From Escherichia phage Ecwhy_1: a DNA stretch of 64,000 bases. The stretch lies in the sequence record MH791411.1; one strand, given 5' to 3'. How positions within the stretch are numbered: position 1 is the stretch's first letter; each line of letters begins with the position of its first letter. The position numbers were made by a program, and so were the translations under genes. This document shows, piece after piece, positions 11,527 through 35,587 of this stretch. The notes under the pieces were generated by a model, which saw only the letters and a program-made list of their open reading frames with translations, did not search any database and was not told the DNA's origin.

Positions 11527-11560
11527 AAAAAGGAGAGCAAATGCTCTCCTTTTCTTTTTT
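11527..11560. terminator. Bidirectional rho-independent terminator
   Basis: AAAAAGGAGAGC-AAAT-GCTCTCCTTTTCTTTTTT: perfect 8-bp GC-rich stem flanked by an A-tract and a T-tract; closes the giant ORF (+) and the ClpA-like gene (-). Confidence 0.75.
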
Positions 11561-20783: not shown

Positions 20784-22925
20784 ATGGCAGTTTTTTCCAA
20801 TTTAGAAGGGACCATGATGCCAACATTCAAGTTGGGTAAACGTGGTGCTTCTATTAATTTTGTAAACGATTCTGTCGCAATCAAAGACTTTTTAGGCGAA
20901 ACGTTCCTACCTGTTAAGGTGGGAACTCCTAATGACGATGATTCCGCAGTAAACGTTAGGTATCTTGAAGATAACCCAAATGCTTTATTTGGCGTACTTC
21001 CACCAACAAATGACATTGGTAAAAATAACAACACTTATTTTCAAGTTGATTCTGAGGGTATTGTTGATATCTTTGCAAAAACAAATGATGTTTGGGTAAA
21101 ATCATTATACATTAATAAAAATGTCCTTTCCAGTGTTAACGGTGCTGATTATATCGGACTTATTACTGGAGGAACACTTCAACAGGCACAGTTTTACATA
21201 ACTCCAGAAGAGTTTGGTGCAAAAGGTGATGGCATCACTGATGACACGGCGGCGGTTAACGCATGTGCAGTTTATGCTAAAGAACACAAAATCCAAATTC
21301 AAGCTGGTGGTAATTATCGTATCAGAACTGCTGTTTATTTGAATGATATTCAATGGTTTGGTGGTACAATCACTGGTAACGGTGGCACAATGGTATCGGT
21401 ACTGAATAGTACAATCCAACAAGCAACATTAACAGGATGTTATTTAAAATTCTTTGGTGGTAATGGTAAATTTTATTTTAATAAATTTATTAATATTACA
21501 AGTACTGCTGCATTTCTAATGCAAGGTATGACTGAATCAGGTACTATCGACTTCTGCTTTAATGAAATGACACAATGTAAGTACGGTGTTCTTCAGCAAG
21601 GCACTGGTGAGAAAATGACCGTTGGGCGTTATTCATACAACCACATCCATGATATATATGGTGATGCAATTGAATTGAACGTAGTCAACTCACATTACCC
21701 AGACGGATTTGTAATAGAAGGTAACTTGATTGAAAACGTAGATGGTACAAATGCACCAATTCCTCTTTCAAACTGGGGTATTGGTATCGGTGTTGCAGGT
21801 TCTGGTCCTTATGATGTGAATGCTGATGATTCACAATATGTAAAAAAATTCGTTATAAAAAATAACCGCTTGTACAATGTCCGTCAATGTATTCACGTTG
21901 AGTTGGGTAAAGACTTTAAAATTCTCAATAATGAAGTTTATCCATCAACGTTGGTATCAATTGGTACTGGTTTGACAACCGCTGGTGTAATTACTTATGG
22001 TTCTGTTGATTTTATTATTGATGGCCTATCTGGGCATCTATTAAATGATCCATCAGTAACTAACCGTATGGTTTCTATTAACTGGGGCGTAACATCTGGT
22101 AAATTTGCTGGTCCTCCACGAAACTTTAAATTATGTAATCTCCACATTCCTGAGTCGTCTATTATTGTGTATACTTCAGGCTCTGATAATTGGCTAAATA
22201 CTACTGAACTTTCTAATATTACATGTAGTAGAATTCAATGGCGTGGATTGCCGTCATCTTCCAAGTTTAATAATATCAGTACTAAAGAACTTGATGTTAT
22301 TGGACAACACCTTGCAACTGAAGGTGAAGGAGGGGGCTTATATACTCGCTCTAAATATACATATACCAACTGGACTAATTGTGTTGTTCAAGATGATTGT
22401 AACATATCAAAATATAGTTTCTCAAGAATGTATGTTGACCGTATTGACCAATCATCTAATAACTTTAAAGTAACCACTGCAATTGATGGAACGGGTCATC
22501 GTGGACCTGTAGTAATACCTGTAGTTGAACAGTATTACGTGCCTTATGATGTTTTTCCTGGTGGGAGATATTTCCCAGCAGGAACAATTATCCATAAACA
22601 ATCAGGTGGAAAATTTATTGTTACAGTAGGTGGTTCTTTCTTTGGTCGATATGACACAATTAGACAAACAGTTGCAGGACAAACTTATATCGAAGCATTG
22701 GGTGTATCATGGGGTGATAATCAATATGCTAAAGCTGCTGGAACCGAAATCCTAATCACAGGAGCAGGGGAAAATGGCGAAGATTTAAAAACATATATCA
22801 CTAGAGCAGTTTATGTTGTTAATAATGCGTATCGTATCGATATTGCCGATCCGATTGTTACTGCTACCGCAGCAGGGGCATTATTGAAAGCTGCTCAACC
22901 AATAACATATATCACCCTATCTTAA
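20784..22925 (+). CDS. Tailspike/depolymerase with pectate-lyase-like beta-helix domain
   Basis: Motif FGAKGDGITDDTAAVNACAVYA typical of the pectate-lyase/polygalacturonase-fold superfamily used by phage capsule depolymerases; the N-terminal ~40 aa are shared with the next gene. Confidence 0.7.
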   Translation: MAVFSNLEGTMMPTFKLGKRGASINFVNDSVAIKDFLGETFLPVKVGTPNDDDSAVNVRYLEDNPNALFGVLPPTNDIGKNNNTYFQVDSEGIVDIFAKTNDVWVKSLYINKNVLSSVNGADYIGLITGGTLQQAQFYITPEEFGAKGDGITDDTAAVNACAVYAKEHKIQIQAGGNYRIRTAVYLNDIQWFGGTITGNGGTMVSVLNSTIQQATLTGCYLKFFGGNGKFYFNKFINITSTAAFLMQGMTESGTIDFCFNEMTQCKYGVLQQGTGEKMTVGRYSYNHIHDIYGDAIELNVVNSHYPDGFVIEGNLIENVDGTNAPIPLSNWGIGIGVAGSGPYDVNADDSQYVKKFVIKNNRLYNVRQCIHVELGKDFKILNNEVYPSTLVSIGTGLTTAGVITYGSVDFIIDGLSGHLLNDPSVTNRMVSINWGVTSGKFAGPPRNFKLCNLHIPESSIIVYTSGSDNWLNTTELSNITCSRIQWRGLPSSSKFNNISTKELDVIGQHLATEGEGGGLYTRSKYTYTNWTNCVVQDDCNISKYSFSRMYVDRIDQSSNNFKVTTAIDGTGHRGPVVIPVVEQYYVPYDVFPGGRYFPAGTIIHKQSGGKFIVTVGGSFFGRYDTIRQTVAGQTYIEALGVSWGDNQYAKAAGTEILITGAGENGEDLKTYITRAVYVVNNAYRIDIADPIVTATAAGALLKAAQPITYITLS

Positions 22926-22939: not shown

Positions 22940-23839
22940 ATGGCAGTTTTTTCTAATTTAGAAGGAACCATGAAGAAGACCTTCATACTTGGTAAAAATG
23001 GTGCACAAATTGCCACTAATGGTAATGTTGTTCAAATCCAGAACTACACGGGTACACAACTTCTTCCTGTTTCAGCAGGTGACCCAACCGCAAATACACA
23101 CTTGGTTACATTGGGTTATTTGAATACACATAGCGGTGGTGGTGGTGGTTCCGGTATTTTACGTGGAACTATTGCACCATCTGAATCAATCGGTGTAGAT
23201 GGTGACGCTTACTTCTTAGTTGACAGTACTAATATTATTCAGATCTATATTAAAGACCTTGGTGTTTGGAAGCCTCTCCAAAGCACAACTCCAGGTACTG
23301 ATAGTTCTTACGTTACTACTGAAATCGTTCCTGTATCGGCATTTACATTAGTTCCTGGAACAACAGATCAATATACTTATTCTTTGCCTGAATCAGTACA
23401 TGGTCGTGGTCCAGATATTATGGTTCAGCTACAGGGTGATCCTGGTAACATCCCACTTGACACTGTATTCCAAACTAACGTCACTGTGAGTGGTATTGGT
23501 GACATTACGATTGATGTTATTGGTCAAATCACTGAATACACAAGTGTCAAAGTCAACATCATAGGAGCAACAACAATGACAGTACCTTATAGTAAATTAA
23601 TTAATATAGCAGATTGGGTAGCATCTGGTGATGATTACACCATTACTGTTCCAGCGTCAGAACATAACCAAACACCTGACAATTTGTATATTTCTATATA
23701 TTCAAATAAAACACCAGGCAGTACAGCAGCATCACCATTTGAACTGGTAATAACCGAAACTCAAATTGATGCAAGTGGTAATGTTACATTCACTTCTGAC
23801 GAAGCGTTTAGTGGTAAAATAGTAATTTCCGGTAAATAA
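22940..23839 (+). CDS. Receptor-binding (tail fibre/spike) protein sharing an N-terminal adaptor with the depolymerase
   Basis: N-terminus MAVFSNLEGTMKKTFILGKNGAQ nearly matches the 713-aa protein's MAVFSNLEGTMMPTFKLGKRGAS; strong RBS AAGGAG. Confidence 0.6.
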   Translation: MAVFSNLEGTMKKTFILGKNGAQIATNGNVVQIQNYTGTQLLPVSAGDPTANTHLVTLGYLNTHSGGGGGSGILRGTIAPSESIGVDGDAYFLVDSTNIIQIYIKDLGVWKPLQSTTPGTDSSYVTTEIVPVSAFTLVPGTTDQYTYSLPESVHGRGPDIMVQLQGDPGNIPLDTVFQTNVTVSGIGDITIDVIGQITEYTSVKVNIIGATTMTVPYSKLINIADWVASGDDYTITVPASEHNQTPDNLYISIYSNKTPGSTAASPFELVITETQIDASGNVTFTSDEAFSGKIVISGK

Positions 23840-23848: not shown

Positions 23849-23886
23849 TCCAGACTATGATTCATCTAGTCTGGATTTTTTATATC
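23849..23886 (+). terminator. Rho-independent terminator
   Basis: TCCAGACT-loop-AGTCTGGA hairpin (8-bp stem) followed by TTTTTT, after the stop at 23839. Confidence 0.6.
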
Positions 23887-23957
23887 AATAACTAAATATA
23901 TGTATATTAACAAGGTCAAATGTATTTTATGCTTTTTGCCTATTTGGAGGGAACTAA

Positions 23958-26900
23958 ATGTACTCGATTAAAACAGATCTCGATATAACTGGTGGTGCAA
24001 CGGTTGCTAAAGATCTTCTTGTGAAAGGCGATGCAGTATTCAATAAAAATCTAACAGTTAATGGAACTGTAACTTTTGCTGACGCTGTATTCACTGCAAT
24101 TGAAGCAGAAACTGTAGACATTTCATCTACACTAGATGTTGCTGGTAAAGCATCATTGAATGGTGGAATTGAAGTTCATGGTAATTCCGTAATTGGTAAT
24201 TTGCCTGTTGGTTCTGATACTGCAACGATTAATTCTAATGCACAATTCCAAAGCCCAGTATCAATGGCAGGTAATCTAACACAAACCGCTGGCACTGCTG
24301 TACTAAAAGATACCCAAGTGGCATCAATGGATGTTCTTGGGACTTCTTCATTTAAAGGTAATATTACTGCTGAAACTGGCACTACCGCAGCATTTGACAA
24401 AATAACTGCAACTGATGCAACATTCACAAACACTGCAACTACTGATATCACATCAACTGGAACTGCAAACTTTAAAGATGTGAATATTTCCGGTACACTA
24501 GGTGGAACATTTAGTCTATCTGATGTTAATGCAACAACTCTAACTGTTTCTGGTTTAACCAGTCTACAAGGTGGTGTTACATTAGGTTCCAACATTACTG
24601 GTGTGAATAGTAGTGCAAACTTCCGTGATATTAAAATTGGTTCCAATGCTGCAAACACTAACTACCGTTTGAGCTTTAACTATTCTGCTCCAAGTCTTCG
24701 TCCAACTGTAATTCTACAGAACGAAATCCAATCAGAATTGATGTCTCCAGCTACCCTAAGTGTATTGAAAACTGCATCTTTTGGTGATTCGTCACTATCC
24801 ACTTTTGGTATTACTGGTAATGGTCTAAACAAACTAGATTACCTAACAGTATCTGGTAACTCTGTTCAAGATCCAACAACTCCACTATTACAAGTAACTT
24901 CAGGTAAAACTAAAGTTCATGATTTCGAAGTAACAGGAACTGCAACTATTCCTAACATTGAAAGTACTGGTACTGCTAATTTTAATAACATCAACGTATC
25001 TGGTACACTCGGTGGTACTTTCAGTCTTGATGATATTGAAGCAAACACACTAACTGTATCCGGTTTAACTAGCCTTGTTGGTGGTGTAACTTTAGGTGCT
25101 GATATTTCCGGTGCTAATAGTACTGCTAATTTTAAAGCAGTAAGTTTAGGACAAAACGCCGCCGATGCTAACGTTAAGTATGGTTTTGCTTATTCTGCCC
25201 CTGGTGCTCGCCCAACTGTAATTCTACAAAATGAAATTCAGTCTGAGCTAGTATCTCCAGCAGTACTTAATGTACAAAAAACTGCAACCTTTGGTGATGC
25301 ATCTCTTGCAACCTATGGTATCACAGGTAACGGTCTAAACAAACTAGATTATCTATCTATTACTGGTAATGGTACACAAAGTCCAGCTACCCCACAACTA
25401 CAAGTTGCTGGTAAATCAGTACTAAATGATGTTGAATTCACTGGTACTGTAACTGGTCTAACTGTTGATGTGAGTGGACAAGATCTAACTCCTAAATCAG
25501 TAGATGCTGCTGAAGCAATCAAAGGTCAAACCCTTGAATCAGTTGGTCAAACCACAGTAGGAACTAACCTACAAGTTGGTGGAACTGCTAATGTTGTTGG
25601 TGCACTAACTGGTACTGCTGCTACCTTCACTGGTGATGTAAGTGCTGCTAAAGGTACTTTCAGTGGTGATGTTAGCGTTACTGGTCAAACTGTAACTGTA
25701 CGTGATTTAGTAGTAACTGGTACAACTACTGGTGTAACTGCCCAAGCTGATGTTGATGGTCTTGATATCGCCCCAAATAAAGTTGATGTTACAACAACAC
25801 TATCTGTTGCTGGGGACACTACTTTAGCTGGCCTAACTGCTAGTTCAGTAACCAGTACTGGTGATGTTACTGGTGCGTCTGTATCTGGTAATACAGTAAC
25901 TGCGGCTGGGGCACTATCTGGTGGTTCTCTTGCAGTAACTGGTGCTGGTTCTATGGCTTCACTAACTGTTCCAAGTATTACTGGTGACACTACTTTTGCT
26001 AATAACGTAACTATTACTGGAACACTAACTCCGAGTAGTATAGATTTAAGCACTACTGATGTAAGTGCTGCTTCTTTAACAACTACTGGTAACGTAACTG
26101 TTGGTGGTTCTCTTGCAGTAACTGGTGCTATTGATTTGTCTGCTGCTGATGTAGTAACAAAATCAGTTAGTGCAACTAACCCAAGTACATTTGGTGTAAT
26201 TAATGCATCTTCTGTTGCCGCAACTGGTGACGTTTCAGGTGGCACACTAACTACTACTGGTGCAGCGAAAGTAGGAACACTAACTAGTACTGGTGTAGTA
26301 TCTGGTTCGCGTTTGTCTTCTGGTACTGCAACAATCACAACTTCTGTAACAGTTCCAACTTTACAAGCTGAAGCTGCTGGTGCTGGTACACTAAATCTAG
26401 CAAGTAATGTTGTCGCGGCAAAAGATCTAACTGTCACTGGTGTATTCAAACCTGAAGGTGGTCTTGATCTAACAACTGTTGATATTACTGCAAACTCACT
26501 AACTACTACTGCTGATGTTAATGTTGGTGGAAACTTAGTAGTTGATGGTACTTTTGACCTAAGTGCTGCTGATGTGTCTGTGAAATCTCTTGCAAGTGCA
26601 GAGACAATTACAAGTGCTGGTGTTATTACCGTTACCGATTCAACCAATACTAGTTCGTTACCTAAAATTACTTCAACTGATGCAACACTCTTTACAGTAA
26701 ATGCAGGTACTATTAATGCAACTGGTAACAGTGTACTACAAAGTGTATCAGCTACTCAAGTAACTGCTAATAGTGCTGAATTTTCTGGTGGTGGCCTTGG
26801 TCTTCAAGTTGATAATGATGCAAACGTTGGTGGTGCATTATCTGTTGGTGGCATTGCAACTGTTGGTTCTTTAACAACAACTGCTGCTTCTCTTAATATT

Positions 26901-28892
26901 GCAAAAAATACTGCAATCACTGGTGATTTAGCTGTATCTGGCACACTAACTGCTGGTTCAATCGACCTAAGCAATACTGATGTAACCGTTAAATCTCTTG
27001 ATTCACTAGGTAACGCACACATTGCTGGTAACCTAACTGTAGATGGTGCATTCGACTTAAGTGCAACTAACCTTGTAGCTGCAAGTCTAGCAAGTACTGG
27101 TTCTACTACTGTTGGAACTGATCTAGTACTAACAACTGGTGTTGTGACTGGTAGCCCAGCTATCTCTGGTAATACAACAATCGGTGGAACTCTTGGTGTA
27201 ACTGGTGCTGTTAACCTAACTGATATTGTTAATATCGGTAAGAAAGTAACAGTGAGTACTGGTGGTATTCAGGTAGTTGATGGTGGTATCAATACTAACA
27301 CAATTAACGTTTCTGGTGCTTCTACTCTAGCAGGAACTTCCATTACTGGAACTTTAGGTGTAACTGGTGCTTCTACTCTAGCAGGTGTATCTGCGACATC
27401 ACTAACAGTTTCTGGTGACAGTACTGTTCAGAAACTAACTGTCCAAGGTGAATTGATCCCACAAGGTGGTCTTGACCTAAGCGGTGCAGACATTACTGCT
27501 AATAGTCTAACTACTGCGACAACTATCAATGCAACTGGCCTAAGTACTCTAAGTGGTGGTGTTAGTACTTCTACTGTGACTGCATCTGGTCTAGCAACTG
27601 TTGGAAGTTTAACTTCTACTGCAAACGCATCAGTTGGTGGTAATTTGGGTGTAACTGGAACTCTAGGTGTTACTGGTGCAACTACTGTATCTTCACTAAC
27701 AGCTACTGGTGCAGTGAAAACTGGTACAACCCTAACTGTTGGTACTCCAGTTGGTGAACAACCTGAAACTGTACAGATCATTCCAGATACTTATATTGCT
27801 GGTAAATTGCGTGTAATCGGTGGTATTAACGCTGAAATCGACGTAAGTGGTCAAACACTAGAACCATATGCAATTGAAGCTGCTGCAACACTATCTGCTG
27901 TTGGTAACATTACTTCTGGTGCAACCATCGTTTCTAAAGCTGCAACAATTGGTGATGTTGGTTCACAAAACAACAACCTAACTGTTAATGGTAACGTAGT
28001 AACTAATGGTGACTTCACCGTTACTGGTGTACTAAATGCACAATTGAACCAAGCAGATTCCGATGTAGCTGTTAAGTCTTTGACTGCAACTAATAACGTT
28101 GCGGCTGGTACTTCAATCACTGCTGGAACATCCATCACTGCATCAGGCTTACTAAAAGGTAATTCGTTAGAAGTCACCACTACTGGTTCATTTGGTGGTG
28201 CAGTAACTATGTCAAGTGGTGCAAACATCACTGGTACTGTTGGTATCACTGCTGGTGACCTAACAGTAGGTGGTAATATCTCTGCAACTGGTACTGCTGG
28301 ATTCGGTGCAACAACCGTTTCTACCATTACAACATCAGGTTTAGCTACCCTTGCAAGTGCATCTGTAACTGGTGCTCTAACTGTAGGTGGTACATTAACT
28401 GCAAATGGTAACACTGTGATTGGTGATGCTGCTGCTGATACTTTAACTGTAAATGCAACATCTACATTTAAAGAGAACGCAACATTTGATAAGAACCTAA
28501 CAGTGACTGGTTCTATTAACACCACCACTGCAAACTTCACTACAAACAACATGGTAACTAAGAAATATTCTGTTATCCCTGCTAGTGTTACTGCTTCTAC
28601 TGCTGCTGTAGGTGGCACTTGGACACCAGATGGTACTACTAACGTATATCGCTTAACTCTTGACCAAAGTGTTACAATGGATTCCATCGCGGGTCTAATT
28701 GGTAGTGGTCAAGCATGTTCAGTGTATATCTATGTAACTCCATCTGTTGCTGATACTACTTTCACCTTCGGTGGTGCATACTCTGTAGTTTCTGGTACAG
28801 TAAGTGCTGTAGTTGGTCAAACAAGTATTATCCAAGTAATCTATGATGGTTTCAGTACTGTGTTTGATACCTTCGTTGCACAACGTGTATAA
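23958..28892 (+). CDS. Large repeat-rich fibrous protein (1,644 aa), paralog 1
   Basis: Thr/Gly/Val/Ser-rich with repeated modules (e.g. TxGxIDLSxxDV...KSL). N- and C-termini are conserved with the 1,899-aa paralog; RBS GGAGGG. Confidence 0.7.
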   Translation: MYSIKTDLDITGGATVAKDLLVKGDAVFNKNLTVNGTVTFADAVFTAIEAETVDISSTLDVAGKASLNGGIEVHGNSVIGNLPVGSDTATINSNAQFQSPVSMAGNLTQTAGTAVLKDTQVASMDVLGTSSFKGNITAETGTTAAFDKITATDATFTNTATTDITSTGTANFKDVNISGTLGGTFSLSDVNATTLTVSGLTSLQGGVTLGSNITGVNSSANFRDIKIGSNAANTNYRLSFNYSAPSLRPTVILQNEIQSELMSPATLSVLKTASFGDSSLSTFGITGNGLNKLDYLTVSGNSVQDPTTPLLQVTSGKTKVHDFEVTGTATIPNIESTGTANFNNINVSGTLGGTFSLDDIEANTLTVSGLTSLVGGVTLGADISGANSTANFKAVSLGQNAADANVKYGFAYSAPGARPTVILQNEIQSELVSPAVLNVQKTATFGDASLATYGITGNGLNKLDYLSITGNGTQSPATPQLQVAGKSVLNDVEFTGTVTGLTVDVSGQDLTPKSVDAAEAIKGQTLESVGQTTVGTNLQVGGTANVVGALTGTAATFTGDVSAAKGTFSGDVSVTGQTVTVRDLVVTGTTTGVTAQADVDGLDIAPNKVDVTTTLSVAGDTTLAGLTASSVTSTGDVTGASVSGNTVTAAGALSGGSLAVTGAGSMASLTVPSITGDTTFANNVTITGTLTPSSIDLSTTDVSAASLTTTGNVTVGGSLAVTGAIDLSAADVVTKSVSATNPSTFGVINASSVAATGDVSGGTLTTTGAAKVGTLTSTGVVSGSRLSSGTATITTSVTVPTLQAEAAGAGTLNLASNVVAAKDLTVTGVFKPEGGLDLTTVDITANSLTTTADVNVGGNLVVDGTFDLSAADVSVKSLASAETITSAGVITVTDSTNTSSLPKITSTDATLFTVNAGTINATGNSVLQSVSATQVTANSAEFSGGGLGLQVDNDANVGGALSVGGIATVGSLTTTAASLNIAKNTAITGDLAVSGTLTAGSIDLSNTDVTVKSLDSLGNAHIAGNLTVDGAFDLSATNLVAASLASTGSTTVGTDLVLTTGVVTGSPAISGNTTIGGTLGVTGAVNLTDIVNIGKKVTVSTGGIQVVDGGINTNTINVSGASTLAGTSITGTLGVTGASTLAGVSATSLTVSGDSTVQKLTVQGELIPQGGLDLSGADITANSLTTATTINATGLSTLSGGVSTSTVTASGLATVGSLTSTANASVGGNLGVTGTLGVTGATTVSSLTATGAVKTGTTLTVGTPVGEQPETVQIIPDTYIAGKLRVIGGINAEIDVSGQTLEPYAIEAAATLSAVGNITSGATIVSKAATIGDVGSQNNNLTVNGNVVTNGDFTVTGVLNAQLNQADSDVAVKSLTATNNVAAGTSITAGTSITASGLLKGNSLEVTTTGSFGGAVTMSSGANITGTVGITAGDLTVGGNISATGTAGFGATTVSTITTSGLATLASASVTGALTVGGTLTANGNTVIGDAAADTLTVNATSTFKENATFDKNLTVTGSINTTTANFTTNNMVTKKYSVIPASVTASTAAVGGTWTPDGTTNVYRLTLDQSVTMDSIAGLIGSGQACSVYIYVTPSVADTTFTFGGAYSVVSGTVSAVVGQTSIIQVIYDGFSTVFDTFVAQRV

Positions 28893-28910
28893 CATTTTAA
28901 ATTAATAATT

Positions 28911-28940
28911 AAAGCCAACTTTTTTAGTTGGCTTTTTCTT
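28911..28940 (+). terminator. Rho-independent terminator
   Basis: AAAGCCAACT-TTTT-TAGTTGGCTTTTTCTTTT after the stop at 28892. Confidence 0.65.
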
Positions 28941-29041
28941 TTGTATTAGATAATAGTGTTTTTGTGAATTAAACTAAATATAAGTATATTAACAAAAGAT
29001 GGGTTATGAATATATAGTTCATCGTTATAGGAGGGGACTCT

Positions 29042-32000
29042 ATGTACTCGATTAAAACGGATCTTGATGTATCTGGTAATTCCACGGTAGGTAAGGATCT
29101 TTTGGTCAAAGGTAATGCAGTATTCAGTAATGACCTAACGGTTAATGGGGAAGTGTCTTTTGCTAACGCAGTATTCACTGCAATTACCGCTGGTTCTGTG
29201 AATGTCACAGGTGCATTGGATGTTGCTGGTAAGGCAACCTTATCCGGTGGTGCTGATGTTTCAGGTGCTGCGACATTTGCAGGAAACATTACTGCTGCTG
29301 GCGGCACAACTGCAAAATTTGATAACTTAGAAGCTAATTCAGGATCATTTGATTCTGTTGAATCAACTGATATTACTTCAACTGGCACAGCAACTTTTAA
29401 AGATGTAAACATTTCTGGTACACTTGGTGGTACTTTTAATCTTTCTGATATTAATGCTACAACACTTAATGTGTCTGGTGCTTCAGCACTAACTGGTTCA
29501 GTCACATTGGGTGCAAATATCACTGGTCTTGCAAGTACTGCAAACTTCCGTGATATTCGTATCGGGCCTAATGAAGCAGGTCAAGCATATAGACTAAACT
29601 TTGGTTACACCGTTCCAGGACAACGACCAACCGTTCTTCTACAGAACGAAGTTCAATCCGAACTAATGTCACCAGCTAAGTTGAATGTTCTACAAACTGC
29701 AACATTTGGTGATTCTTCACTTTCAACTTACGGTATTACAGGTAATGGTTTAAACAAATTAGATTATGTAACTATTTCTGGTAACGCAATTCAATCACCA
29801 ACCACTCCTTTACTTGAAGTAACTAAAGGTAAAACTAAAGTTGTTGATTTAGAAGTAACTGGTGTAGCAACTATTCCTAATATCGAAAGTTCTGGTACTG
29901 CAAACTTTAACAACATCAACGTATCTGGTACTATTGGTGGTAGTTTTGATTTAGATGATATCCAAGCAACAACATTATCAGTATCCGGTGCTTCAGCACT
30001 AACTGGTGCAGTTACATTGGGTGCAAACATCACTGGTCTAGCAAGTACTGCAACATTCAAAGCAATCAATTTGGGTCAAAATACCGCTGATGCTAACGTT
30101 AAGCTAGGTTTTGCATATACTGCACCTAGTGCACGTCCAACAGTCTTGTTAGCAAACGAAGTTCAATCTGAACTAATGTCTCCTGCTAAGTTGAACGTTC
30201 TACAAACTGCAACCTTCGGTTCTGCTGCACTATCTACCTATGGTATTACTGGTAATGGTCTAAACAAATTAGATTATCTAACAATTACTGGTAACGCAAC
30301 ACAAAACCCTGCTACTCCACAACTTCAAGTTGGTGGTAAAGCAATTCTTAATGATGTTGAATTTACAGGTACTGTAACTGGCCTAACTGTTGATGTGAGT
30401 GGACAAGATCTAACTCCTAAATCAGTAGTTGCTGCTGAAGCAATCAAAGGTCAAACTCTTGAATCAGTTGGTCAAACAACTGTAGGTTCATCTCTACAAG
30501 TTGGCGGTACTGCAACTGTTACTGGTGCATTATCTGCTGCCTCTGGTACTTTCAGTGGTGATGTTAGTGGTTCTAAAGGTATCTTCAGTGGTAGCGTATC
30601 CGGTACAAGTGCAACCTTTACTGGGGATGTTAGCGGTGATAACGCAACCTTTAGTGGCGATTTATCTGCTGTAGCTGGCACTTTCAGTGGTGATGTAACC
30701 GTAACTGGTCAAACAATCACTGTTAAAGACTTGGTAGTAACTGGAACTTCAACTGGTGTAACTGCAATCGCTGACGTTGACGGTCTTGATATTGCTCCAA
30801 ACAAAGTTGATGTTACAACAACTCTATCTGTTGCTGGTGAATCAACTCTTGCTGGTATTACAGCAACTTCAATCAATAGTACTGGTGCAATTGCAGGTAC
30901 TGCAATTTCTGGCTCTACTATTACAGCAACTGGTGAAATTTCTGGTGCATCATCTGTAGTAACTGGTCTTTCTAAATCTGGTAGCGTTGAAACTGGTGCT
31001 CTAAAGGCATCTTCTGTTGAAACTGCAATCATTAGCAACACTGCTGGTGTGTCAATAACAAACAACACTTCCATTGCAGGTAATCTATCTGTGACTGGAA
31101 CTGTTACCCCTGGTGCAATTGACCTAAGCACTACTGATATTGATGCTAAGTCCCTAACTACAACTGAAGGTGCTAACATTGGTGGTAACCTAGTTGTTGC
31201 AGGTACAGTTGATCTAAGTGCTGCTGACGTTGCTGTTAAATCTCTAACCAGTACTGGTGCAGTTATTAGTTCTGAAGGTACTGTAAGTAGTGTTCTACCT
31301 AAACTTTCCAGTACTGAAGCTAATATTACCACAGTAACTGCAACCACTGCAAATGCTACCACACTAAATGTAACTGGTACATCAACTCTAGCTGGTGTTA
31401 ACGCTTCTGGTGCTATTACTTCTGCAACTAACATTACCGCTACTGGTGTATTAAAAGGTGCATCTGTTGAAACTGCGTCAATCAGCAATGCTGATGGTGT
31501 AGCAATTAACAATAACACTACAATCACTGGTAATTTGGACGTATCTGGGACATTGACCCCTGGTGCAATTGACCTAAGCACTACTGATATTAGTTCTAAG
31601 TCTCTAACCACAACTGAAGGTGCTACAATTGGTGGCGATCTTGTGGTAGCAGGTACTGTTGACCTAAGTGCTGCTGATGTGTCTGTGAAATCTCTTGCAA
31701 GTGCAGAGACAATTACAAGTGCTGGTGTTATTACAGTTTCGGATACAGTGAATTCTAGCACTCTACCAAAACTAATTACTACTGATGCAACTATTGGTGC
31801 TGTCCATGCAGCTACTATTGAAACAACTGGTTCAAGTACACTAAAACAAGTATCTGCTACTGAAGTAACAGCTACAAGTATTGTACTAAATTCAGTTGGT
31901 GAAGGTTTACGTGTTGACAATAATGCAAACATTAATGGTATATTAAGTGTTAATAATATTACTTCTACCAATGATACTATTGCAATTGCGAAAAGTGCTG

Positions 32001-34741
32001 CTATTACTGGTGATCTGACCGTATCTGGAACTGTTACCCCTGGTGCAATTGACCTAAGTACTACCGATATTAGTTCTAAATCCCTAAGTACTACTGAAGG
32101 TGCTACAATTGGTGGTGACCTAGTTGTTAATGGTTCAATTGATTTAAGTTCTTCCAATGTTTCAGCAATTACCCTTGCTAGTTCTGGTAATACTACCGTT
32201 GGTGGTAACCTAGTACTAACAACTGGTGTTGTAACTGGCAGCCCATCTGTATCTGGCAACCTTTCAGTTGCAGGTACTGCGGCAGTAACTGGTGCAACTA
32301 CCCTAACTGATATCGTAAATATCGGTAAGAAAGTAACTGTAAGCACTGGTGGTATTCAAGTAGTTGCAGGTGGTATTAATACCGACGCTATATTAGTATC
32401 CGGTGATACAACTTTAAACAACACTACTGTAAACACTACCTTAAATGTAACTGGTCAAAGTACAGTAGCTGCACTAAGTGCTGCATCTTTGAATGTATCT
32501 GGTGATAGTACTGTTCAAAAACTAACAGTTGAAGGTGAATTGGTTCCACAAGGTGGTATCGACCTAACTGGTGCAGATATTTCTGCTAATAGTCTTGCAA
32601 CTGCTTCAACAATCACTGCAACTGGACTAAGCACACTAAGTGGTGGTGTAAGTACTACTAATGTTACTGCATCTGGTACAGTGAATGCTGGTAGTTTGGA
32701 TGTTACTAACAACGCAACCGTTGGTGGTAATTTGGGTGTAACTGGTTCATTAACTTCTGGTCCATTGAGTGTAACAGGTATTGCGAATATTACTGGTGTA
32801 ACAACTGTTGGTTCATTGGTTTCCGGTGCAGTATCTGGTAGTACTGGTACATTTAGTTCAACATTAGGTGTAACTGGTGCAGCTACATTTGACAATGACG
32901 TAACTGTTGAAGGTGTATTCACCCCAGCAGGTGGTTTAGACCTAACAACTTCTGATATTACGGCTAAGAGTTTGTCAGTATCTGAAACTATTCACTCTGA
33001 TGGTGCAGCTTCCTTTGGTGGTAACACAACAGTAGGTGGTACATTGGGTGTAACTGGTGCAGTAACTGCTCCATCGGCAACCCTAAGTGGTACTGGTACT
33101 GCACTAGCAGTAACTAATAATGCAACTATTGGTGGTACATTAGGTGTAACTGGTCAAGCATCACTTGGTTCTATAGTAACTTCTGGCGTTTCTGCAACAA
33201 GTGGCTCTTTCAGTACTACTCTTGGCGTTACTGGTGCTGCGACATTTGGTAACGATGTAACTGTAGTTGGAACACTAACTCCTGGTAGCTTAGATCTAAC
33301 TGGTGCAGATATCTCTGCTAAAACACTAACTCTATCTGAAACATTAAATGCAACAGGTAATACTACCCTTGGTGGAACATTAGGTGTAACTGGTTTAGCA
33401 ACAATTGGTGGAACACTAACGTCTGGTGCAGTAACTGCTCCATCTGCAACCTTGAATGGTTCAGGTACTGGTCTAGCAGTAACTAACAACGCAACCGTTG
33501 GTGGAACATTAGGTGTAGTTGGTCAAACAACACTAGGTTCTGTTAAAACTGGTGCAACTCTAACAGTTGGTACACCATTAGGTGAGCAGCCTGAAACTGT
33601 ACAGATTATGCCAGACACTTATATTGCTGGTAAACTACGTGTTGAAGGTGGTATTAACGCAGATATCGATGTTGGTGGACAAACACTAGAACCGTTTGCA
33701 GTAATAGCATCTGATTCTTTATCTTCTGCTGGTAATATTACTGCTGGTGCAGCAATTATTTCAAGTTCTGCAACAATTGGTGAAGTCGGTTCACAAAACA
33801 ACAACCTAATCGTTAATGGTAACGTTGTAAACAACGGTAACTTCACTGTTACTGGTGTACTAAATGCACAATTGAACCAAGCAGATTCCGATGTAGCTGT
33901 TAAGTCTTTGACTGCAACTAACAACGTATCTGCTGGAACCACATTAAGTGCAGGTACTGCAATTACTGCTGGTACTTCCATCACTGCAACTGGATTACTT
34001 AAAGGTAATACTTTAGAAGTTACTACTACTGGTTCATTTGGTGGTTTAGTAACTATGTCAAGTGGTGCAAATATCACTGGTGCAATGACCACTGCGGGTA
34101 ACATAACAGTGGGTGGCAATATCACTGCAACTGGTACTGCTGGATTCGCTGCAACAACCGTTTCTACAATTACAACAACAGGTTTGGCTACAATTGCAAG
34201 TGCATCCATTACTGGTAACGCAACAGTAGGTGGAACACTAACTGCGAATGGTAACGTAACATTAGGTGACGCAGCGGCAGACGTTCTAACCGTTAATGCA
34301 ACTTCATCATTTAAAGAAAATGCTGTGTTTGATAAGGCAGTAACAGTAACTGGTGCACTAACCACTACTAATGCTAACTTAACTACTACAACAGTAACTA
34401 CCAAAAAGTATGATGTAATCCCAACTCAAGTTACATCATCAGTAATTGCTCCAACCGGAACATGGACTCCAGATGGTACAAGTAACGTATACTTCATCAC
34501 TCTAGACCAAGATACCACGTTGGCTCCAATTACTGGCCTAATTGGTGGTGGTAAAGCTGCATCAGTATACATCTATGTTAAACAAGATACAACTGGTAAC
34601 AGAAACTTTACAACTGATGGTACTTATGCTGTTGTTGATGGTGAACTAAACAAAACTGCTGGTAGTGTGACCATTTACCAAGTAATTTATGATGGTGTAA
34701 GTCCAGTTACTGATTTGTTCATTGCACAACGTACTGCTTAA
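29042..34741 (+). CDS. Large repeat-rich fibrous protein (1,899 aa), paralog 2
   Basis: Same N-terminus (MYSIKTDLD...) and C-terminal domain as paralog 1; contains three tandem ~450-480-bp repeats (TPGAIDLSTTDI modules) at about 31.1, 31.55 and 32.03 kb; RBS AGGAGGGG. Confidence 0.7.
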   Translation: MYSIKTDLDVSGNSTVGKDLLVKGNAVFSNDLTVNGEVSFANAVFTAITAGSVNVTGALDVAGKATLSGGADVSGAATFAGNITAAGGTTAKFDNLEANSGSFDSVESTDITSTGTATFKDVNISGTLGGTFNLSDINATTLNVSGASALTGSVTLGANITGLASTANFRDIRIGPNEAGQAYRLNFGYTVPGQRPTVLLQNEVQSELMSPAKLNVLQTATFGDSSLSTYGITGNGLNKLDYVTISGNAIQSPTTPLLEVTKGKTKVVDLEVTGVATIPNIESSGTANFNNINVSGTIGGSFDLDDIQATTLSVSGASALTGAVTLGANITGLASTATFKAINLGQNTADANVKLGFAYTAPSARPTVLLANEVQSELMSPAKLNVLQTATFGSAALSTYGITGNGLNKLDYLTITGNATQNPATPQLQVGGKAILNDVEFTGTVTGLTVDVSGQDLTPKSVVAAEAIKGQTLESVGQTTVGSSLQVGGTATVTGALSAASGTFSGDVSGSKGIFSGSVSGTSATFTGDVSGDNATFSGDLSAVAGTFSGDVTVTGQTITVKDLVVTGTSTGVTAIADVDGLDIAPNKVDVTTTLSVAGESTLAGITATSINSTGAIAGTAISGSTITATGEISGASSVVTGLSKSGSVETGALKASSVETAIISNTAGVSITNNTSIAGNLSVTGTVTPGAIDLSTTDIDAKSLTTTEGANIGGNLVVAGTVDLSAADVAVKSLTSTGAVISSEGTVSSVLPKLSSTEANITTVTATTANATTLNVTGTSTLAGVNASGAITSATNITATGVLKGASVETASISNADGVAINNNTTITGNLDVSGTLTPGAIDLSTTDISSKSLTTTEGATIGGDLVVAGTVDLSAADVSVKSLASAETITSAGVITVSDTVNSSTLPKLITTDATIGAVHAATIETTGSSTLKQVSATEVTATSIVLNSVGEGLRVDNNANINGILSVNNITSTNDTIAIAKSAAITGDLTVSGTVTPGAIDLSTTDISSKSLSTTEGATIGGDLVVNGSIDLSSSNVSAITLASSGNTTVGGNLVLTTGVVTGSPSVSGNLSVAGTAAVTGATTLTDIVNIGKKVTVSTGGIQVVAGGINTDAILVSGDTTLNNTTVNTTLNVTGQSTVAALSAASLNVSGDSTVQKLTVEGELVPQGGIDLTGADISANSLATASTITATGLSTLSGGVSTTNVTASGTVNAGSLDVTNNATVGGNLGVTGSLTSGPLSVTGIANITGVTTVGSLVSGAVSGSTGTFSSTLGVTGAATFDNDVTVEGVFTPAGGLDLTTSDITAKSLSVSETIHSDGAASFGGNTTVGGTLGVTGAVTAPSATLSGTGTALAVTNNATIGGTLGVTGQASLGSIVTSGVSATSGSFSTTLGVTGAATFGNDVTVVGTLTPGSLDLTGADISAKTLTLSETLNATGNTTLGGTLGVTGLATIGGTLTSGAVTAPSATLNGSGTGLAVTNNATVGGTLGVVGQTTLGSVKTGATLTVGTPLGEQPETVQIMPDTYIAGKLRVEGGINADIDVGGQTLEPFAVIASDSLSSAGNITAGAAIISSSATIGEVGSQNNNLIVNGNVVNNGNFTVTGVLNAQLNQADSDVAVKSLTATNNVSAGTTLSAGTAITAGTSITATGLLKGNTLEVTTTGSFGGLVTMSSGANITGAMTTAGNITVGGNITATGTAGFAATTVSTITTTGLATIASASITGNATVGGTLTANGNVTLGDAAADVLTVNATSSFKENAVFDKAVTVTGALTTTNANLTTTTVTTKKYDVIPTQVTSSVIAPTGTWTPDGTSNVYFITLDQDTTLAPITGLIGGGKAASVYIYVKQDTTGNRNFTTDGTYAVVDGELNKTAGSVTIYQVIYDGVSPVTDLFIAQRTA

Positions 34742-34807
34742 TAATTATAATAAAAAAAACGGTGTCATCAATTATGGTGACACCATCTTAACAAGTGAGG
34801 TAGATAT

Positions 34808-35587
34808 ATGTTTACATATGTAAAAGGTAGTTCTAAAGAAAATTATGAATTGGGTAACATCATCTCCAACCCAGTTGGTGTTAAGGGTTTAAAAGAACGC
34901 CCTGGGGCAACTCCAGATGATGAACAAACATATCGTTATTTGTACAGTGATATCCGTGCACTTTATGGTATTTCAAGTAAAGATGGTTCTGAAATTGAAC
35001 CTAATAACGCTGTTCGCAAAGAAGAGGGTTTCTGGTGGTTGGAATATAAGAATGTTGGTAATGTGAACGCAATTAATGAGAATTTGGAATATATTAAACT
35101 ACAAGATAGTAATCAACCAGTCATCACATTCTTAGAAGAAGCAGAAGGTGAATATAAAGAGTTAACAGTACTGAAAACTTATAATTATGTTGATATGGAC
35201 ATTGCAGCAGTTAAATCTGATCTGAAAGCACGCACAGTATCATCTCGTAGTGATCGTATTAATGCTGGTTATATGTTTAACGGTCATCGTTATAGTACTG
35301 ATCTAGCTGGTCGTCAAATGCTTCTTAATTATTATACACAAGTAACTTCCGGTTCTGATAGCGTTTCGATTTTCCTTGATGACGCAATTGTAAAACTATC
35401 TGCTGCTGAAATGACTCAACTATACACTGAAGCATTTGCTATGGTTGAATCCCTATTTGCAGAGTGTAATAAGCAATGTGCTGACATTGATGCAGTTCCT
35501 GATGCTGATGAAGATGCAATTTATAAAGCACAACAGGCGGCTGTATGGGTATATGAAGGTATTGATATTCCTGAGCGTATTCGTTAA
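34808..35587 (+). CDS. Hypothetical protein, possibly fibre-associated (assembly/chaperone role is speculative)
   Basis: 259-aa ORF between the giant fibre genes and the 654-aa tail fibre gene; RBS GAGG; no motif recognised. Confidence 0.45.
   Translation: MFTYVKGSSKENYELGNIISNPVGVKGLKERPGATPDDEQTYRYLYSDIRALYGISSKDGSEIEPNNAVRKEEGFWWLEYKNVGNVNAINENLEYIKLQDSNQPVITFLEEAEGEYKELTVLKTYNYVDMDIAAVKSDLKARTVSSRSDRINAGYMFNGHRYSTDLAGRQMLLNYYTQVTSGSDSVSIFLDDAIVKLSAAEMTQLYTEAFAMVESLFAECNKQCADIDAVPDADEDAIYKAQQAAVWVYEGIDIPERIR

What the first reader, a model, noticed from the sequence alone, without database searches (positions are those of the whole stretch)
23880..34741. Tandem paralogous giant fibre genes with duplicated upstream region and internal ~450-480-bp repeats
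The 1,644-aa and 1,899-aa proteins share the N-terminus (MYSIKTDLD...), a conserved C-terminal domain (...IYQVIYDG...FxAQR) and a conserved upstream element (ACTAAATATA[T/A]GTATATTAACAA). Near-identical DNA stretches of ~100 bp recur (for example 25.44 vs 30.37 kb, 26.52 vs 31.62 kb, 27.96 vs 33.78 kb). The second gene also contains three tandem copies of a ~160-aa module (TPGAIDLSTTDI...) at about 31.10, 31.55 and 32.03 kb. This architecture is prone to recombination and suggests modular or variable host-recognition fibres.
Basis: seen in the sequence. Interest (0 to 1): 0.75.

Follow-up and report, generated by a model that had tools for sequence, protein, structure and literature searches.

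The report
Duplicated giant fibre genes, jumbo coliphage
Two neighbouring, very long fibre genes of a known giant E. coli phage are old copies of one another that keep the same attachment end but carry different far ends and keep recombining; this is real and tidy but an ordinary way for phages to vary their fibres.

Summary
The window is an Asteriusvirus (121Q/PBECO4-like) jumbo coliphage, ~99% identical to EC.P1, fEgEco12, WPEC5 and CMSTMSU. Genes A (23958-28892, 1644 aa) and B (29042-34741, 1899 aa) are collinear paralogs (72-78% nt, 68% aa). Each follows a terminator-like hairpin, a conserved 23-nt element and a GGAGGG ribosome-binding site. Both are modular: an N-terminal anchor, two 170-aa domains, 11-aa repeats, 4 (A) or 6 (B) shaft modules, and a C-terminal tip. 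The duplication is old (dS 0.5-1.1) and both copies are under purifying selection. B carries the tip of the single-copy gene of 121Q and phAPEC6 (gp256, found in virions by mass spectrometry). A carries a different tip. Recombination is visible: exact 74-76-nt patches between A and B, an A::B fusion gene in TH47, a frameshifted A and a replaced B shaft in vB_Ec-M-J, and three 170-aa domains in JNE01. The only solved relative is a phiTE baseplate fibre chain (9CUY), matching in the middle domains and tip but not the N-terminus. There is no inversion or other programmed variation system. Relatives already annotate both genes as tail fibres. Open point: where the fibres sit. They may be the unassigned ~119-nm "hairs" of these phages.

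The parts
22940..23839 (+). 299-aa virion structural protein gene that always lies just upstream of the fibre gene(s)
   Evidence: phrog_10468 E 2.6e-92. Same position in fEgEco12, 121Q, JNE01 and CBB (CBB_227). CBB_227 was detected by MS (PMC5259590).
23849..23881 (+). Terminator-like hairpin (TCCAGACTA / TAGTCTGGA, 9-nt loop) plus a T run, after the upstream gene
   Evidence: Read directly from the sequence. An equivalent hairpin is seen upstream of the orthologous gene in 121Q, JNE01, A4 and UE-S1. The automatic scan missed it because the loop exceeds 8 nt.
23891..23913 (+). Upstream element, copy 1: ACTAAATATATGTATATTAACAA (late-promoter-like, with a TAAATA core)
   Evidence: Only two matches in the window, none expected. 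Conserved upstream of the ortholog in 121Q, JNE01 (both copies), UE-S1 and A4. The TAAATA core recurs upstream of other structural genes.
23946..23951 (+). Ribosome-binding site GGAGGG of gene A
   Evidence: Sequence; invariant in the alignment of upstream regions.
23958..28892 (+). Gene A, 1644-aa fibre protein: the extra paralog with the variant tip
   Evidence: ORF. phrog_4549 'tail fiber protein', E 3.9e-181. PDB 9cuy_g E 1e-27. 68.7% T/G/S/V/A/N.
23958..24437 (+). A, N-terminal anchor region (aa 1-160; MYSIKTDL...). Includes the 53 aa that B lacks.
   Evidence: Found only in about 58 jumbo-phage records. No PDB relative.
24438..25457 (+). A, two tandem 170-aa domains (D1 aa 161-330, D2 aa 331-500)
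   Evidence: 510-nt direct repeat 24456/24966, 69% identical. Alignment. Homologous to phiTE fibre residues 207-371 and to Vequintavirinae fibre genes.
25585..25682 (+). A, 33-nt (11-aa, TFSGDVSxxxG) repeat array, 2 motif copies
   Evidence: Family D10; motif counts.
26016..27707 (+). A, shaft built of four modules (motif xPxxx[IL]DL[ST]xxD[IV] at aa 694, 835, 1001, 1171)
27708..28547 (+). A, conserved C-proximal region (aa 1251-1530). Contains the TH47 crossover zone at about 28306-28370.
   Evidence: 78% nt identity to 33536-34578. Includes a 74-nt exact match at 28020/33848. Crossover mapped.
28548..28889 (+). A, C-terminal tip domain (aa 1531-1644), variant type
   Evidence: 55% aa identity to the B and 121Q tips, 70% to the JNE01_A tip. 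Homologous to the phiTE fibre C-terminus.
28911..28942 (+). Intrinsic-terminator-like hairpin (AAAGCCAACT / AGTTGGCTTT) plus a T run, between A and B
28973..28995 (+). Upstream element, copy 2: ACTAAATATAAGTATATTAACAA
29030..29035 (+). Ribosome-binding site GGAGGG of gene B
   Evidence: Sequence.
29042..34741 (+). Gene B, 1899-aa fibre protein: by its tip, the ortholog of the single-copy gene 121Q gp571 / phAPEC6 gp256
   Evidence: ORF. phrog_4549 E 1.8e-205. PDB 9cuy_g E 2.4e-29. Tip 95% aa identical to 121Q.
29363..30382 (+). B, two tandem 170-aa domains (aa 108-277 and 278-447)
   Evidence: 510-nt repeat 29382/29892, 74% identical.
30510..30706 (+). B, 33-nt (11-aa) repeat array, 5 motif copies
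   Evidence: Family D10.
30992..32533 (+). B, three tandem 450-510-nt shaft modules (B1-B3), the '~160-aa module' of the finding
   Evidence: Repeats 30992/31442/31922, 77-83% nt identity. B1 is closest to B2 (62% aa); B2 matches A2 and B3 matches A3.
32534..33541 (+). B, modules B4-B6. B5 and B6 are a B-specific tandem pair absent from A.
   Evidence: 369-nt repeat 33054/33423, 85% identical. B5/B6 74% aa identical. Gap in A in the alignment.
33536..34396 (+). B, conserved C-proximal region
34397..34738 (+). B, C-terminal tip domain (aa 1786-1899), the type found in 121Q
   Evidence: dN/dS 0.04 against 121Q.
34808..35587 (+). 259-aa DUF4376 virion protein gene that always follows the (last) fibre gene. 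No TAAATA motif in the 120 nt upstream.
   Evidence: PF14301 E 2.8e-9. phrog_17968. Synteny. The ortholog CBB_225 was detected by MS (PMC5259590). Upstream sequence.

Best explanation
**What it is.** These are two structural fibre genes of a RaK2-like jumbo myophage (genus Asteriusvirus). They arose by an old tandem duplication of one unit, consisting of a late-promoter-like element, a ribosome-binding site and the fibre gene.

**Transcription (inferred).** Each copy appears to be its own late transcription unit. B may be co-transcribed with the DUF4376 virion protein gene that follows it.

**Protein layout (shown).** Both proteins have the same order of parts:
- a strictly conserved N-terminus (MYSIKTDL...), inferred to be the part that docks on the virion;
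- two 170-aa domains;
- a run of 11-aa repeats;
- a Thr/Gly/Ser/Val/Ala-rich shaft made of 90-170-aa modules (4 in A, 6 in B);
- a conserved C-proximal stretch;
- a ~115-aa C-terminal tip.

**Which copy is which (shown).** B keeps the tip of the single-copy gene of 121Q and phAPEC6. A carries a divergent tip type that is also found in JNE01.

**Proposed function (inferred).** Both fibres dock through the shared N-terminus on the same kind of site. The particle therefore carries two fibre types of different length and different distal ends. This most plausibly gives two binding specificities.

**How the locus evolves (shown by comparison).**
- module and domain duplication;
- short gene-conversion patches between A and B;
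- unequal crossing-over that fuses A to B;
- small in-frame slips.

This is ordinary homologous recombination, not a programmed switch.
For: **Paralogy and anatomy.**

**Age and selection.** dS between A and B is 0.5-1.1, with dN/dS 0.17-0.69. Between isolates, dN/dS is 0.24 for A and 0.22 for B.

**Identity of the phage.** The window is 98-99% identical to EC.P1, fEgEco12, WPEC5, CMSTMSU and WPEC3.

**Copy number across relatives.**
- Two copies in 10 phage records.
- One copy in 121Q-like phages, CBB, GAP32, Serratia BF and uncultured jumbo contigs. All of these start MYSIKTDL and end FIAQR.

**Virion protein.** The orthologs phAPEC6 gp256 (180 kDa, 15 peptides) and CBB_226 were detected by mass spectrometry (PMC7247149, PMC5259590; loci).

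**Fibre family.** phrog_4549. PDB 9cuy_g, a phiTE baseplate fibre chain, matches at E 1e-27 to 2e-29, and at 6e-21 for the tip profile.

**Tips.** B versus 121Q is 95% aa identical with dN/dS 0.04. A versus B is 55%. A versus JNE01_A is 70%. The tip domain always lies at the extreme C-terminus in its 41 database representatives.

**Regulatory elements.**

**Recombination.**
- Exact runs of 76, 74 and 46 nt in a 72-78% background. By my own estimate, about 1e-5 such runs are expected by chance.
- The TH47 gene is A-like up to about aa 1440, then B-like.
- vB_Ec-M-J has a 14-nt deletion in A and a divergent B shaft.
- JNE01_B has three 170-aa domains.
- 6-aa indels occur between isolates.
Against: - No experiment or solved structure covers these proteins. 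Both AlphaFold2 runs failed (pLDDT 36.5 and 34.1), so the trimeric beta-helical fibre shape is inferred only from composition and from the phiTE relative.
- The N-terminal region has no relative of known position. The docking site is therefore unknown.
- The phiTE fibre's own N-terminal anchor is not shared.
- Receptor binding by the tip is an assumption. The downstream DUF4376 virion protein could instead be the adhesin.
- A is truncated in vB_Ec-M-J, and its C-terminal part is lost in TH47. A's tip is therefore not essential on laboratory hosts.
- TH47 is an 'UNVERIFIED' record, and the fusion could be an assembly collapse.
- The promoter assignment rests on motif resemblance only.
Confidence: 0.8

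Rival explanations
1. The two proteins are not baseplate tail fibres. They are the unusual ~119-nm flexible 'hairs' (whiskers) that decorate the tail sheath and capsid of phAPEC6, CBB and fEgEco12, for which no gene has been assigned. On this reading, A and B would be two hair types.
For: - The baseplate fibres seen by EM are short (28.6 nm in CBB), whereas the hairs measure 119 +/- 10 nm (PMC5259590).
- Six 'short' baseplate fibres plus hairs are also reported for phAPEC6 and fEgEco12 (PMC7247149, PMC13070987).
- The 793-aa phiTE relative is predicted to be 512 A long (PMC11972413). My own scaling at about 0.65 A per residue gives about 106 nm for A, 123 nm for B and 100 nm for CBB_226.
- A and B are the only strongly fibrous giants in the window. 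The 3333-aa neighbour has a globular composition.
- The N-terminal anchor differs from that of the baseplate-bound phiTE fibre.
- The gene is present in the hairy phages CBB, phAPEC6 and fEgEco12 and not found in RaK2 or K64-1 (PMC5259590).
- No paper up to mid-2026 names the hair gene.
Against: - The gene lies in a baseplate and tail-fibre gene cluster.
- Its only solved relative is baseplate-attached.
- GAP32 has the gene, but no hairs were reported for it.
- Hairs sit on both the sheath rings and the capsid, which would need one anchor to fit several sites.
- Other virion proteins could form hairs, for example phAPEC6 gp314c (105 kDa) if it is a coiled coil.
- The length estimate is a rough scaling.
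Confidence: 0.3
2. The duplication is an assembly artefact, or the repeats are only compositional bias of a Thr/Gly-rich sequence.
For: The sequence is low in complexity (about 69% T/G/S/V/A/N). Many short 31-47-nt 'families' at 60-70% identity are probably compositional.
Against: - The copies are collinear over about 4.7 kb but differ by 22-28%, so they cannot be a mis-joined duplicate.
- dS is 0.5-1.1.
- The same two-gene arrangement is present, at 98-99% identity, in phage records from separate isolations. The source countries I looked up include Finland, Poland and Thailand.
Confidence: 0.02
3. The locus is a programmed variation system: cassette switching, phase variation, an invertible segment or a diversity-generating retroelement that changes the fibre tip at high frequency.
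For: Two alternative tips lie in tandem with shared flanking homology. One isolate, TH47, has the A body joined to the B tip.
Against: - Both genes are complete, have their own start signals and lie on the same strand.
- There are no long inverted repeats.
- The exact patches carry no adenine-specific mismatches; they are simply identical.
- All eight close relatives keep the same arrangement.
- No recombinase or reverse transcriptase was seen among the neighbours examined.
Confidence: 0.05
4. One copy, A, is a redundant, decaying duplicate with no function of its own.
For: A is frameshifted by a 14-nt deletion in vB_Ec-M-J. Its C-terminal part is replaced in TH47. Most relatives manage with one gene.
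Against: - A is intact in the window and in fEgEco12, BF17 and WPEC3. Matches to its C-terminal region at 89-100% identity occur in five further two-copy records.
- Between isolates its dN/dS is 0.24.
- It has its own conserved start signals.
- Its distinct tip type is conserved in the distant JNE01 lineage, with dN/dS 0.22.
Confidence: 0.08

Closest known systems
Giant fibre protein of RaK2-like jumbo phages: 121Q gp571, phAPEC6 gp256, CBB_226, GAP32 'long tail fiber proximal subunit' (PHROG 4549)
   Same: Homologous along the whole length, with the same N-terminus (MYSIKTDL) and C-terminus (FIAQR). It occupies the same place between the 299-aa virion protein and the DUF4376 protein, upstream of thymidylate synthase. 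The same 23-nt element lies upstream. B's tip is 95% identical to that of 121Q.
   Different: Here, and in nine other records, there are two copies, and the second copy has a different tip. Lengths range from 1464 to 2120 aa through different numbers of domains and modules.
Phage phiTE (Vequintavirinae) baseplate fibre, PDB 9CUY/9MJN chain g, 793 aa. By its description in PMC11972413 this is most likely the long tail fibre.
   Same: It shares the 170-aa domain, the 'VTGTxTGVxxDVDGxDIxPxSV' hinge motif and the C-terminal tip domain (E 1e-27 to 2e-29; tip profile 6e-21). The paper describes the protein as a trimer continuing into a long predicted beta-helix.
   Different: The N-terminal ~200 residues, the only part actually modelled in the map (a helical bundle bound to the wedge and sheath initiator), have no counterpart here. 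The proteins here are 2-2.4 times longer and sit in a jumbo phage of another lineage.
T4 long tail fibre proteins gp34 and gp37 (the source of the GenBank label 'long tail fiber proximal subunit')
   Same: Both are long, thin, repeat-built virion fibres encoded next to baseplate genes. This is a likeness of kind only (own knowledge).
   Different: No significant sequence similarity. The best BLASTP hit is 27 bits (E 0.01-0.04 in a one-to-one comparison), and hhalign gives a probability of 1.1%. There is no gp35/gp36-type joint partner next to the genes.
Phages that carry two or more receptor-binding proteins from paralogous or neighbouring genes, e.g. phiKp24 hyperbranched fibres (PMC9700779). 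From my own knowledge: K1-5, SP6, CBA120.
   Same: One particle is equipped with several fibre or spike types that share an attachment module but differ distally. This is the mechanism I propose for A and B.
   Different: Those cases involve enzymatic tailspikes with known substrates and mapped docking. Here neither the binding target nor the docking site is known.
Programmed tail-fibre variation: Mu and P1 invertible segments, and the Bordetella phage diversity-generating retroelement (own knowledge)
   Same: Alternative fibre C-termini are encoded side by side.
   Different: No invertase sites or inverted repeats. No template/variable repeat pair. Both genes are complete and separately expressed.

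Membership tests
RaK2-like jumbo-phage giant fibre (121Q gp571 / phAPEC6 gp256 / CBB_226; PHROG 4549) | Full-length sequence homology, including the conserved N-terminus MYSIKTDL and C-terminus FIAQR | tested here: met
   phrog_4549 E 3.9e-181 for A and 1.8e-205 for B. Alignments and identities. Termini.
RaK2-like jumbo-phage giant fibre (121Q gp571 / phAPEC6 gp256 / CBB_226; PHROG 4549) | Conserved gene neighbourhood: 299-aa virion protein, then fibre, then DUF4376 protein, then 654-aa protein, then thymidylate synthase on the opposite strand | tested here: met
RaK2-like jumbo-phage giant fibre (121Q gp571 / phAPEC6 gp256 / CBB_226; PHROG 4549) | The protein is part of the virion | not testable with these tools
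   Shown only for the orthologs by mass spectrometry (PMC7247149 Table: gp256, 15 peptides; PMC5259590: CBB_226, 10 peptides).
phiTE-type (Vequintavirinae) baseplate long tail fibre, PDB 9CUY chain g | Shared internal 170-aa domain and hinge motif | tested here: met
   phmmer stretches A 382-546 to chain 207-371 and A 476-646 to chain 358-519. tblastn hits to phiTE and rV5-like fibre genes.
phiTE-type (Vequintavirinae) baseplate long tail fibre, PDB 9CUY chain g | Shared C-terminal tip domain | tested here: met
   A 1529-1641 to chain 682-791. Profile A2 E 6.2e-21.
phiTE-type (Vequintavirinae) baseplate long tail fibre, PDB 9CUY chain g | N-terminal helical-bundle anchor that binds the baseplate wedge and sheath initiator (residues 14-171, the modelled part) | tested here: not met
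   No alignment to chain residues 1-206. The N-terminal profile A7 finds nothing significant in the PDB. The N-terminal region is absent from Vequintavirinae records.
phiTE-type (Vequintavirinae) baseplate long tail fibre, PDB 9CUY chain g | Trimeric extended beta-helical fibre | tested here: inconclusive
   AlphaFold2 monomer models of the 170-aa domain and of the tip had pLDDT 36.5 and 34.1. Only composition and a weak bactofilin-like match (E 2.4e-4, below cut-off) point that way.
[quoted passage not shown] | Sequence homology to T4 gp34 | tested here: not met
   BLASTP best 27.3 bits, E 0.010 for the single comparison. gp37 25.4 bits. hhalign probability 1.1%. No Pfam or NCBIfam family.
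Programmed fibre-variation systems (invertible segment / diversity-generating retroelement) | Inverted repeats flanking alternative C-terminal segments, or a template/variable repeat pair with a reverse transcriptase | tested here: not met
   Only weak 19-31-nt inverted matches at 71-89%. The direct repeats are paralogous coding sequence. Neighbouring genes are structural.

The most novel reading that the evidence does not exclude
Genes A and B, and their single-copy orthologs phAPEC6 gp256 and CBB_226, may encode the so far unassigned ~119-nm 'hairs' on the sheath and capsid of these jumbo phages rather than baseplate tail fibres. The duplicated clade would then carry two hair types with different tips. 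Natural variants would be ready-made test material: TH47 (A body joined to the B tip) and vB_Ec-M-J (truncated A).
Probability: 0.3. Interest if true: 0.6.

Novelty: already known. Interest (0 to 1): 0.3.

Why it matters
**For annotation.**
- The label 'long tail fiber proximal subunit' (T4 gp34) on these genes is not supported by sequence.
- The correct reference points are the RaK2-like giant fibre family and the phiTE fibre.

**For phage biology.**
- The locus is a clean natural example of how a fibre gene is duplicated, gets a second tip, and is then reshuffled by conversion and unequal crossing-over.
- This is relevant to host-range prediction and engineering of Asteriusvirus phages, which are being proposed for therapy.

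**If these proteins turn out to be the 'hairs'.**
- A small but real open question in jumbo-phage structure would be answered: which gene makes the hairs, and what they bind.

Tried and rejected
- **Structure prediction.** AlphaFold2 on the 170-aa domain (6-row alignment) and on the B tip (3-row alignment) gave pLDDT 36.5 and 34.1. The models are unusable, so I ran no fold search.
- **Large protein database.** It holds almost no relatives: 2, 3 and 16 hits, mostly matching only the fibrous 'LGDAAADTLTVNAT' motif. Deep alignments could not be built.
- **Family libraries.** Pfam and NCBIfam give no family for A or B.
- **T4 gp34/gp37 homology.** Rejected.
- **N-terminal profile against the PDB.** Nothing significant.
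- **Inversion system.** Rejected.
- **General promoter.** I checked whether the 23-mer is a general promoter of the phage. The full element is specific to this gene, and only its TAAATA core recurs.
- **IMG/VR scan.** It added only single-copy relatives.
- **Literature on the hair gene.** No paper assigns it. One search returned unrelated papers.
- **Alignment artefact.** The first 24 'B-type' sites in the TH47 three-way alignment conflict with the window scan. I treat them as an alignment-end artefact.

Full report
**1. Observation**

Region 23.9-34.7 kb holds two long + strand ORFs: A at 23958-28892 (1644 aa) and B at 29042-34741 (1899 aa).

A blastn self-comparison shows A and B are collinear along their whole length, in blocks of 72-78% identity with E-values from 0 to 1e-38. 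A protein alignment gives 68% identity over 1583 aligned codons.

The main differences between the two proteins are:
- B lacks 53 residues of A's N-terminal region.
- B has three more copies of an 11-residue repeat.
- B has about 250 extra residues in the shaft.

The 23-mer ACTAAATATA[T/A]GTATATTAACAA occurs only at 23891 and 28973, with none expected by chance.

The exact runs inside or beside them are 46, 76 and 74 nt. Against a 72-78% background, I estimate about 1e-5 runs of 74 nt or more would be expected by chance. The three tandem units in B start at 30992, 31442 and 31922.

- a 510-nt unit repeated twice in both genes;
- a 33-nt repeat array;
- a 369-nt duplication in B.

**2. What the window is**

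The 12.7-kb region is 98.3-99.0% identical to Escherichia phages EC.P1, fEgEco12, WPEC5, CMSTMSU and WPEC3. It is about 75% identical to 121Q, PBECO4 and phAPEC6. These are ~350-385-kb jumbo myophages of the genus Asteriusvirus, the RaK2-like group.

Neighbouring genes encode:
- a baseplate wedge subunit;
- a 3333-aa virion protein;
- a tail sheath stabiliser;
- a colanic-acid-degrading tailspike;
- a 299-aa virion protein;
- a DUF4376 virion protein.

GenBank relatives annotate both genes as 'long tail fiber proximal subunit' or 'tail fiber protein'. The BF17 paper mentions them as the two longest tail fibre genes (PMC10059673).

**3. Anatomy**

Both proteins are about 69% Thr/Gly/Ser/Val/Ala/Asn and contain almost no Trp, Cys, Met or His. 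From N- to C-terminus they contain the following parts.

(a) *Conserved N-terminal region.* It starts MYSIKTDL. It is invariant at many positions even in relatives that are otherwise only 25-40% identical. It is restricted to 58 jumbo-phage records and is not found in RaK2, K64-1 or Vequintavirinae.

(b) *Two 170-aa domains.* Each domain of A is closer to its counterpart in B than to its neighbour in A. The domain duplication therefore predates the gene duplication.

(c) *A hinge with 11-residue repeats.* The TFSGDVSxxxG motif occurs 2 times in A and 5 times in B.

(d) *A shaft of 90-170-aa modules.* Each begins xPxxx[IL]DL[ST]xxD[IV]. A has four and B has six. A2, A3 and A4 correspond to B2, B3 and B4. 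B1 is closest to B2. B5 and B6 are a B-specific pair.

(e) *A well-conserved C-proximal stretch.* About 80% aa identity between A and B.

(f) *A ~115-aa tip.* 54-55% aa identity between A and B.

Upstream of each gene lie a terminator-like hairpin, the 23-mer and a GGAGGG site. The same element precedes the orthologous gene in 121Q, JNE01 (both copies), UE-S1 and A4. Its TAAATA core also occurs upstream of several other structural genes in the window. It resembles the T4 late promoter (own knowledge), but this assignment is an inference. There is no such motif in the 120 nt upstream of the DUF4376 gene that follows B.

**4. Relatives elsewhere**

*Single-copy relatives.* 121Q, phAPEC6, UE-S1, A4, CBB, GAP32, Serratia BF and four uncultured jumbo contigs each have one gene of 1464-1845 aa in the same place.

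*Two-copy relatives.* Two copies are present in ten records: fEgEco12, CMSTMSU, vB_Ec-M-J, EC.P1, WPEC5, WPEC3, BF17, Turkey3, Turkey5 and JNE01.

*Virion evidence.* phAPEC6 gp256 (180 kDa) and CBB_226 were found in purified virions by mass spectrometry (PMC7247149, PMC5259590; loci confirmed).

*Solved structures.* The only solved relative is chain g of PDB 9CUY/9MJN, a 793-aa 'putative tail fiber protein' of the phiTE baseplate.
- It matches the 170-aa domain, the hinge motif and the tip (E 1e-27 to 2e-29; tip profile 6e-21).
- By the paper's description it is most likely the long tail fibre: a trimer whose modelled N-terminal 14-171 residues bind the wedge and sheath initiator, followed by a predicted 512-A beta-helix (PMC11972413).
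- That N-terminal anchor has no counterpart here.

*Wider distribution.* The 170-aa domain also occurs in rV5-like fibre genes. The tip family is small: 41 representatives among 1.84 billion proteins, always at the extreme C-terminus.

*T4 comparison.* T4 gp34 and gp37 show no significant similarity. The GenBank label is therefore only a likeness of kind.

**5. History and dynamics**

*Age and selection.*
- Synonymous divergence between A and B is 0.5-1.1, with dN/dS 0.17-0.69.
- Between isolates, dN/dS is 0.24 for A and 0.22 for B.
- Both copies are therefore old and maintained.

*Tips.*
- B's tip is 95% aa identical to the 121Q tip, despite dS of about 1.1 (dN/dS 0.04).
- A's tip groups with JNE01_A at 70%.
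- B is therefore the ortholog of the single-copy gene, at least for the tip, and A is an extra paralog with another tip type.

*Evidence of recombination.*
- Exact patches of 46-76 nt between A and B.
- TH47 has a single 1652-aa gene. It is 97-100% A-like up to about residue 1440 and 95-100% B-like from there on. The switch lies at about 28306-28370 / 34149-34210, with extra B-type patches just upstream. TH47 is otherwise a close relative of the two-copy phages, so this is a secondary A::B fusion. The record is flagged UNVERIFIED, so an assembly collapse cannot be excluded.
- vB_Ec-M-J has a 14-nt deletion that frameshifts A. Its B shaft is only 72% aa identical to B, while the B ends match at 97-99%.
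- JNE01_B has three 170-aa domains and is 2120 aa long.
- Close isolates differ by 6-aa indels.
- BF17's A has a divergent C-proximal block.

*No programmed system.* There are no long inverted repeats.

**6. Mechanism**

*Shown:*
- The genes are paralogs.
- They are modular.
- They belong to a virion fibre family.
- They share the N-terminus and differ in the tip.
- Recombinant forms exist.

*Inferred:*
- Both proteins form long trimeric fibres that dock by the shared N-terminus on the same kind of virion site. The particle then carries two fibre types of different length and tip, most plausibly giving two binding specificities.
- Each gene is transcribed late from its own promoter.
- B may be co-transcribed with the DUF4376 protein.

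*Not known:*
- where the fibres sit on the virion;
- what they bind.

**7. The open point**

Electron microscopy of CBB, phAPEC6 and fEgEco12 shows only short baseplate fibres (28.6 nm in CBB). It also shows unusual flexible hairs, 119 +/- 10 nm long, on the sheath and capsid. No gene has been assigned to them (PMC5259590, PMC7247149, PMC13070987). No later assignment turned up in the library.

Scaling from the phiTE relative gives about 100-123 nm for CBB_226, A and B. That is the length of the hairs, not of the short baseplate fibres.

- *For the hair reading:* the distinct N-terminal anchor, and the apparent absence of the gene from RaK2.
- *Against it:* the baseplate gene neighbourhood, the baseplate-bound relative, and GAP32, which has the gene but no reported hairs.

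I give this reading about 0.3.

**8. Verdict**

The feature is real and correctly described. It is an already sequenced and annotated pair of fibre genes in a known phage group, and it evolves in ways familiar for phage fibres. Interest is modest. The hair question is the one lead worth an experiment.

Noticed in passing
window 1524-11525 (+): A 3333-aa ORF next to a baseplate wedge gene. It matches phrog_10938 'virion structural protein' along its whole length and has no Pfam domain. Its composition is globular (rich in Tyr, Asp and Asn), not fibrous. Its ortholog is probably phAPEC6 gp245 (382 kDa, MS-detected). Its role is unknown.
   Followed up: partly
L005 (Escherichia virus TH47, MT446416.1) 9059-14017: A single 1652-aa fibre gene that is a chimera: A up to about aa 1440 and B for the rest. 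This is either a natural unequal crossover or an assembly collapse in a record flagged UNVERIFIED.
   Followed up: yes
L002 (vB_Ec-M-J, OQ718158.1) 4059-8979 and 884-3026: Gene A is split by a 14-nt deletion, although it is otherwise 99.7% identical to the window's A. The colanidase tailspike gene is also annotated as two CDS in this record. These could be real pseudogenes or sequencing errors.
   Followed up: partly
L007 (vB_EcoM_JNE01, OR670491.1) 13237-19599: The B-type gene is 2120 aa long and has three copies of the 170-aa domain instead of two. A second, more distant lineage (JNE01 and Turkey5) also has the A+B pair.
   Followed up: partly
proteins P0001 and P0003: A 302-aa fragment 100% identical to gene A is deposited at NCBI under Actinomadura adrarensis. 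A 184-aa fragment 99% identical to the B tip is deposited under Escherichia coli. Both are probably phage DNA contaminating bacterial assemblies. P0003 carries a precomputed Pfam hit, PF26209, that the local Pfam copy did not reproduce.
   Followed up: no
window, upstream of genes at 1524, 13944, 19532(-), 35679, 45097(-), 47727(-), 50654(-), 51430(-), 54481(-), 56385(-): A TAAATA motif recurs 12-56 nt upstream of many structural-gene starts, in some cases just after a terminator-like hairpin. It looks like a T4-type late promoter core. I did not test it statistically.
   Followed up: partly
window 20784-22925 (+): A 713-aa tailspike-like protein (phrog_6117 'colanic acid degradation', E 3.5e-252). 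It has weak N-terminal matches to pectate-lyase-like and endosialidase N-terminal-extension families. It lies two genes upstream of fibre gene A and could be a partner on the same fibre apparatus.
   Followed up: no
window 34761-34784: An imperfect hairpin (GGTGTCATCA / TGGTGACACC) lies between gene B and the DUF4376 gene. It is preceded by an A run and not followed by a T run, so it looks like a terminator for the opposite strand rather than for B.
   Followed up: no
window 19606-20769 (+): A 387-aa 'tail protein' (phrog_13565) with a short collagen-like Gly-X-Y stretch (Pfam Collagen, E 0.006, below cut-off). It is a candidate for the short baseplate fibres.
   Followed up: no
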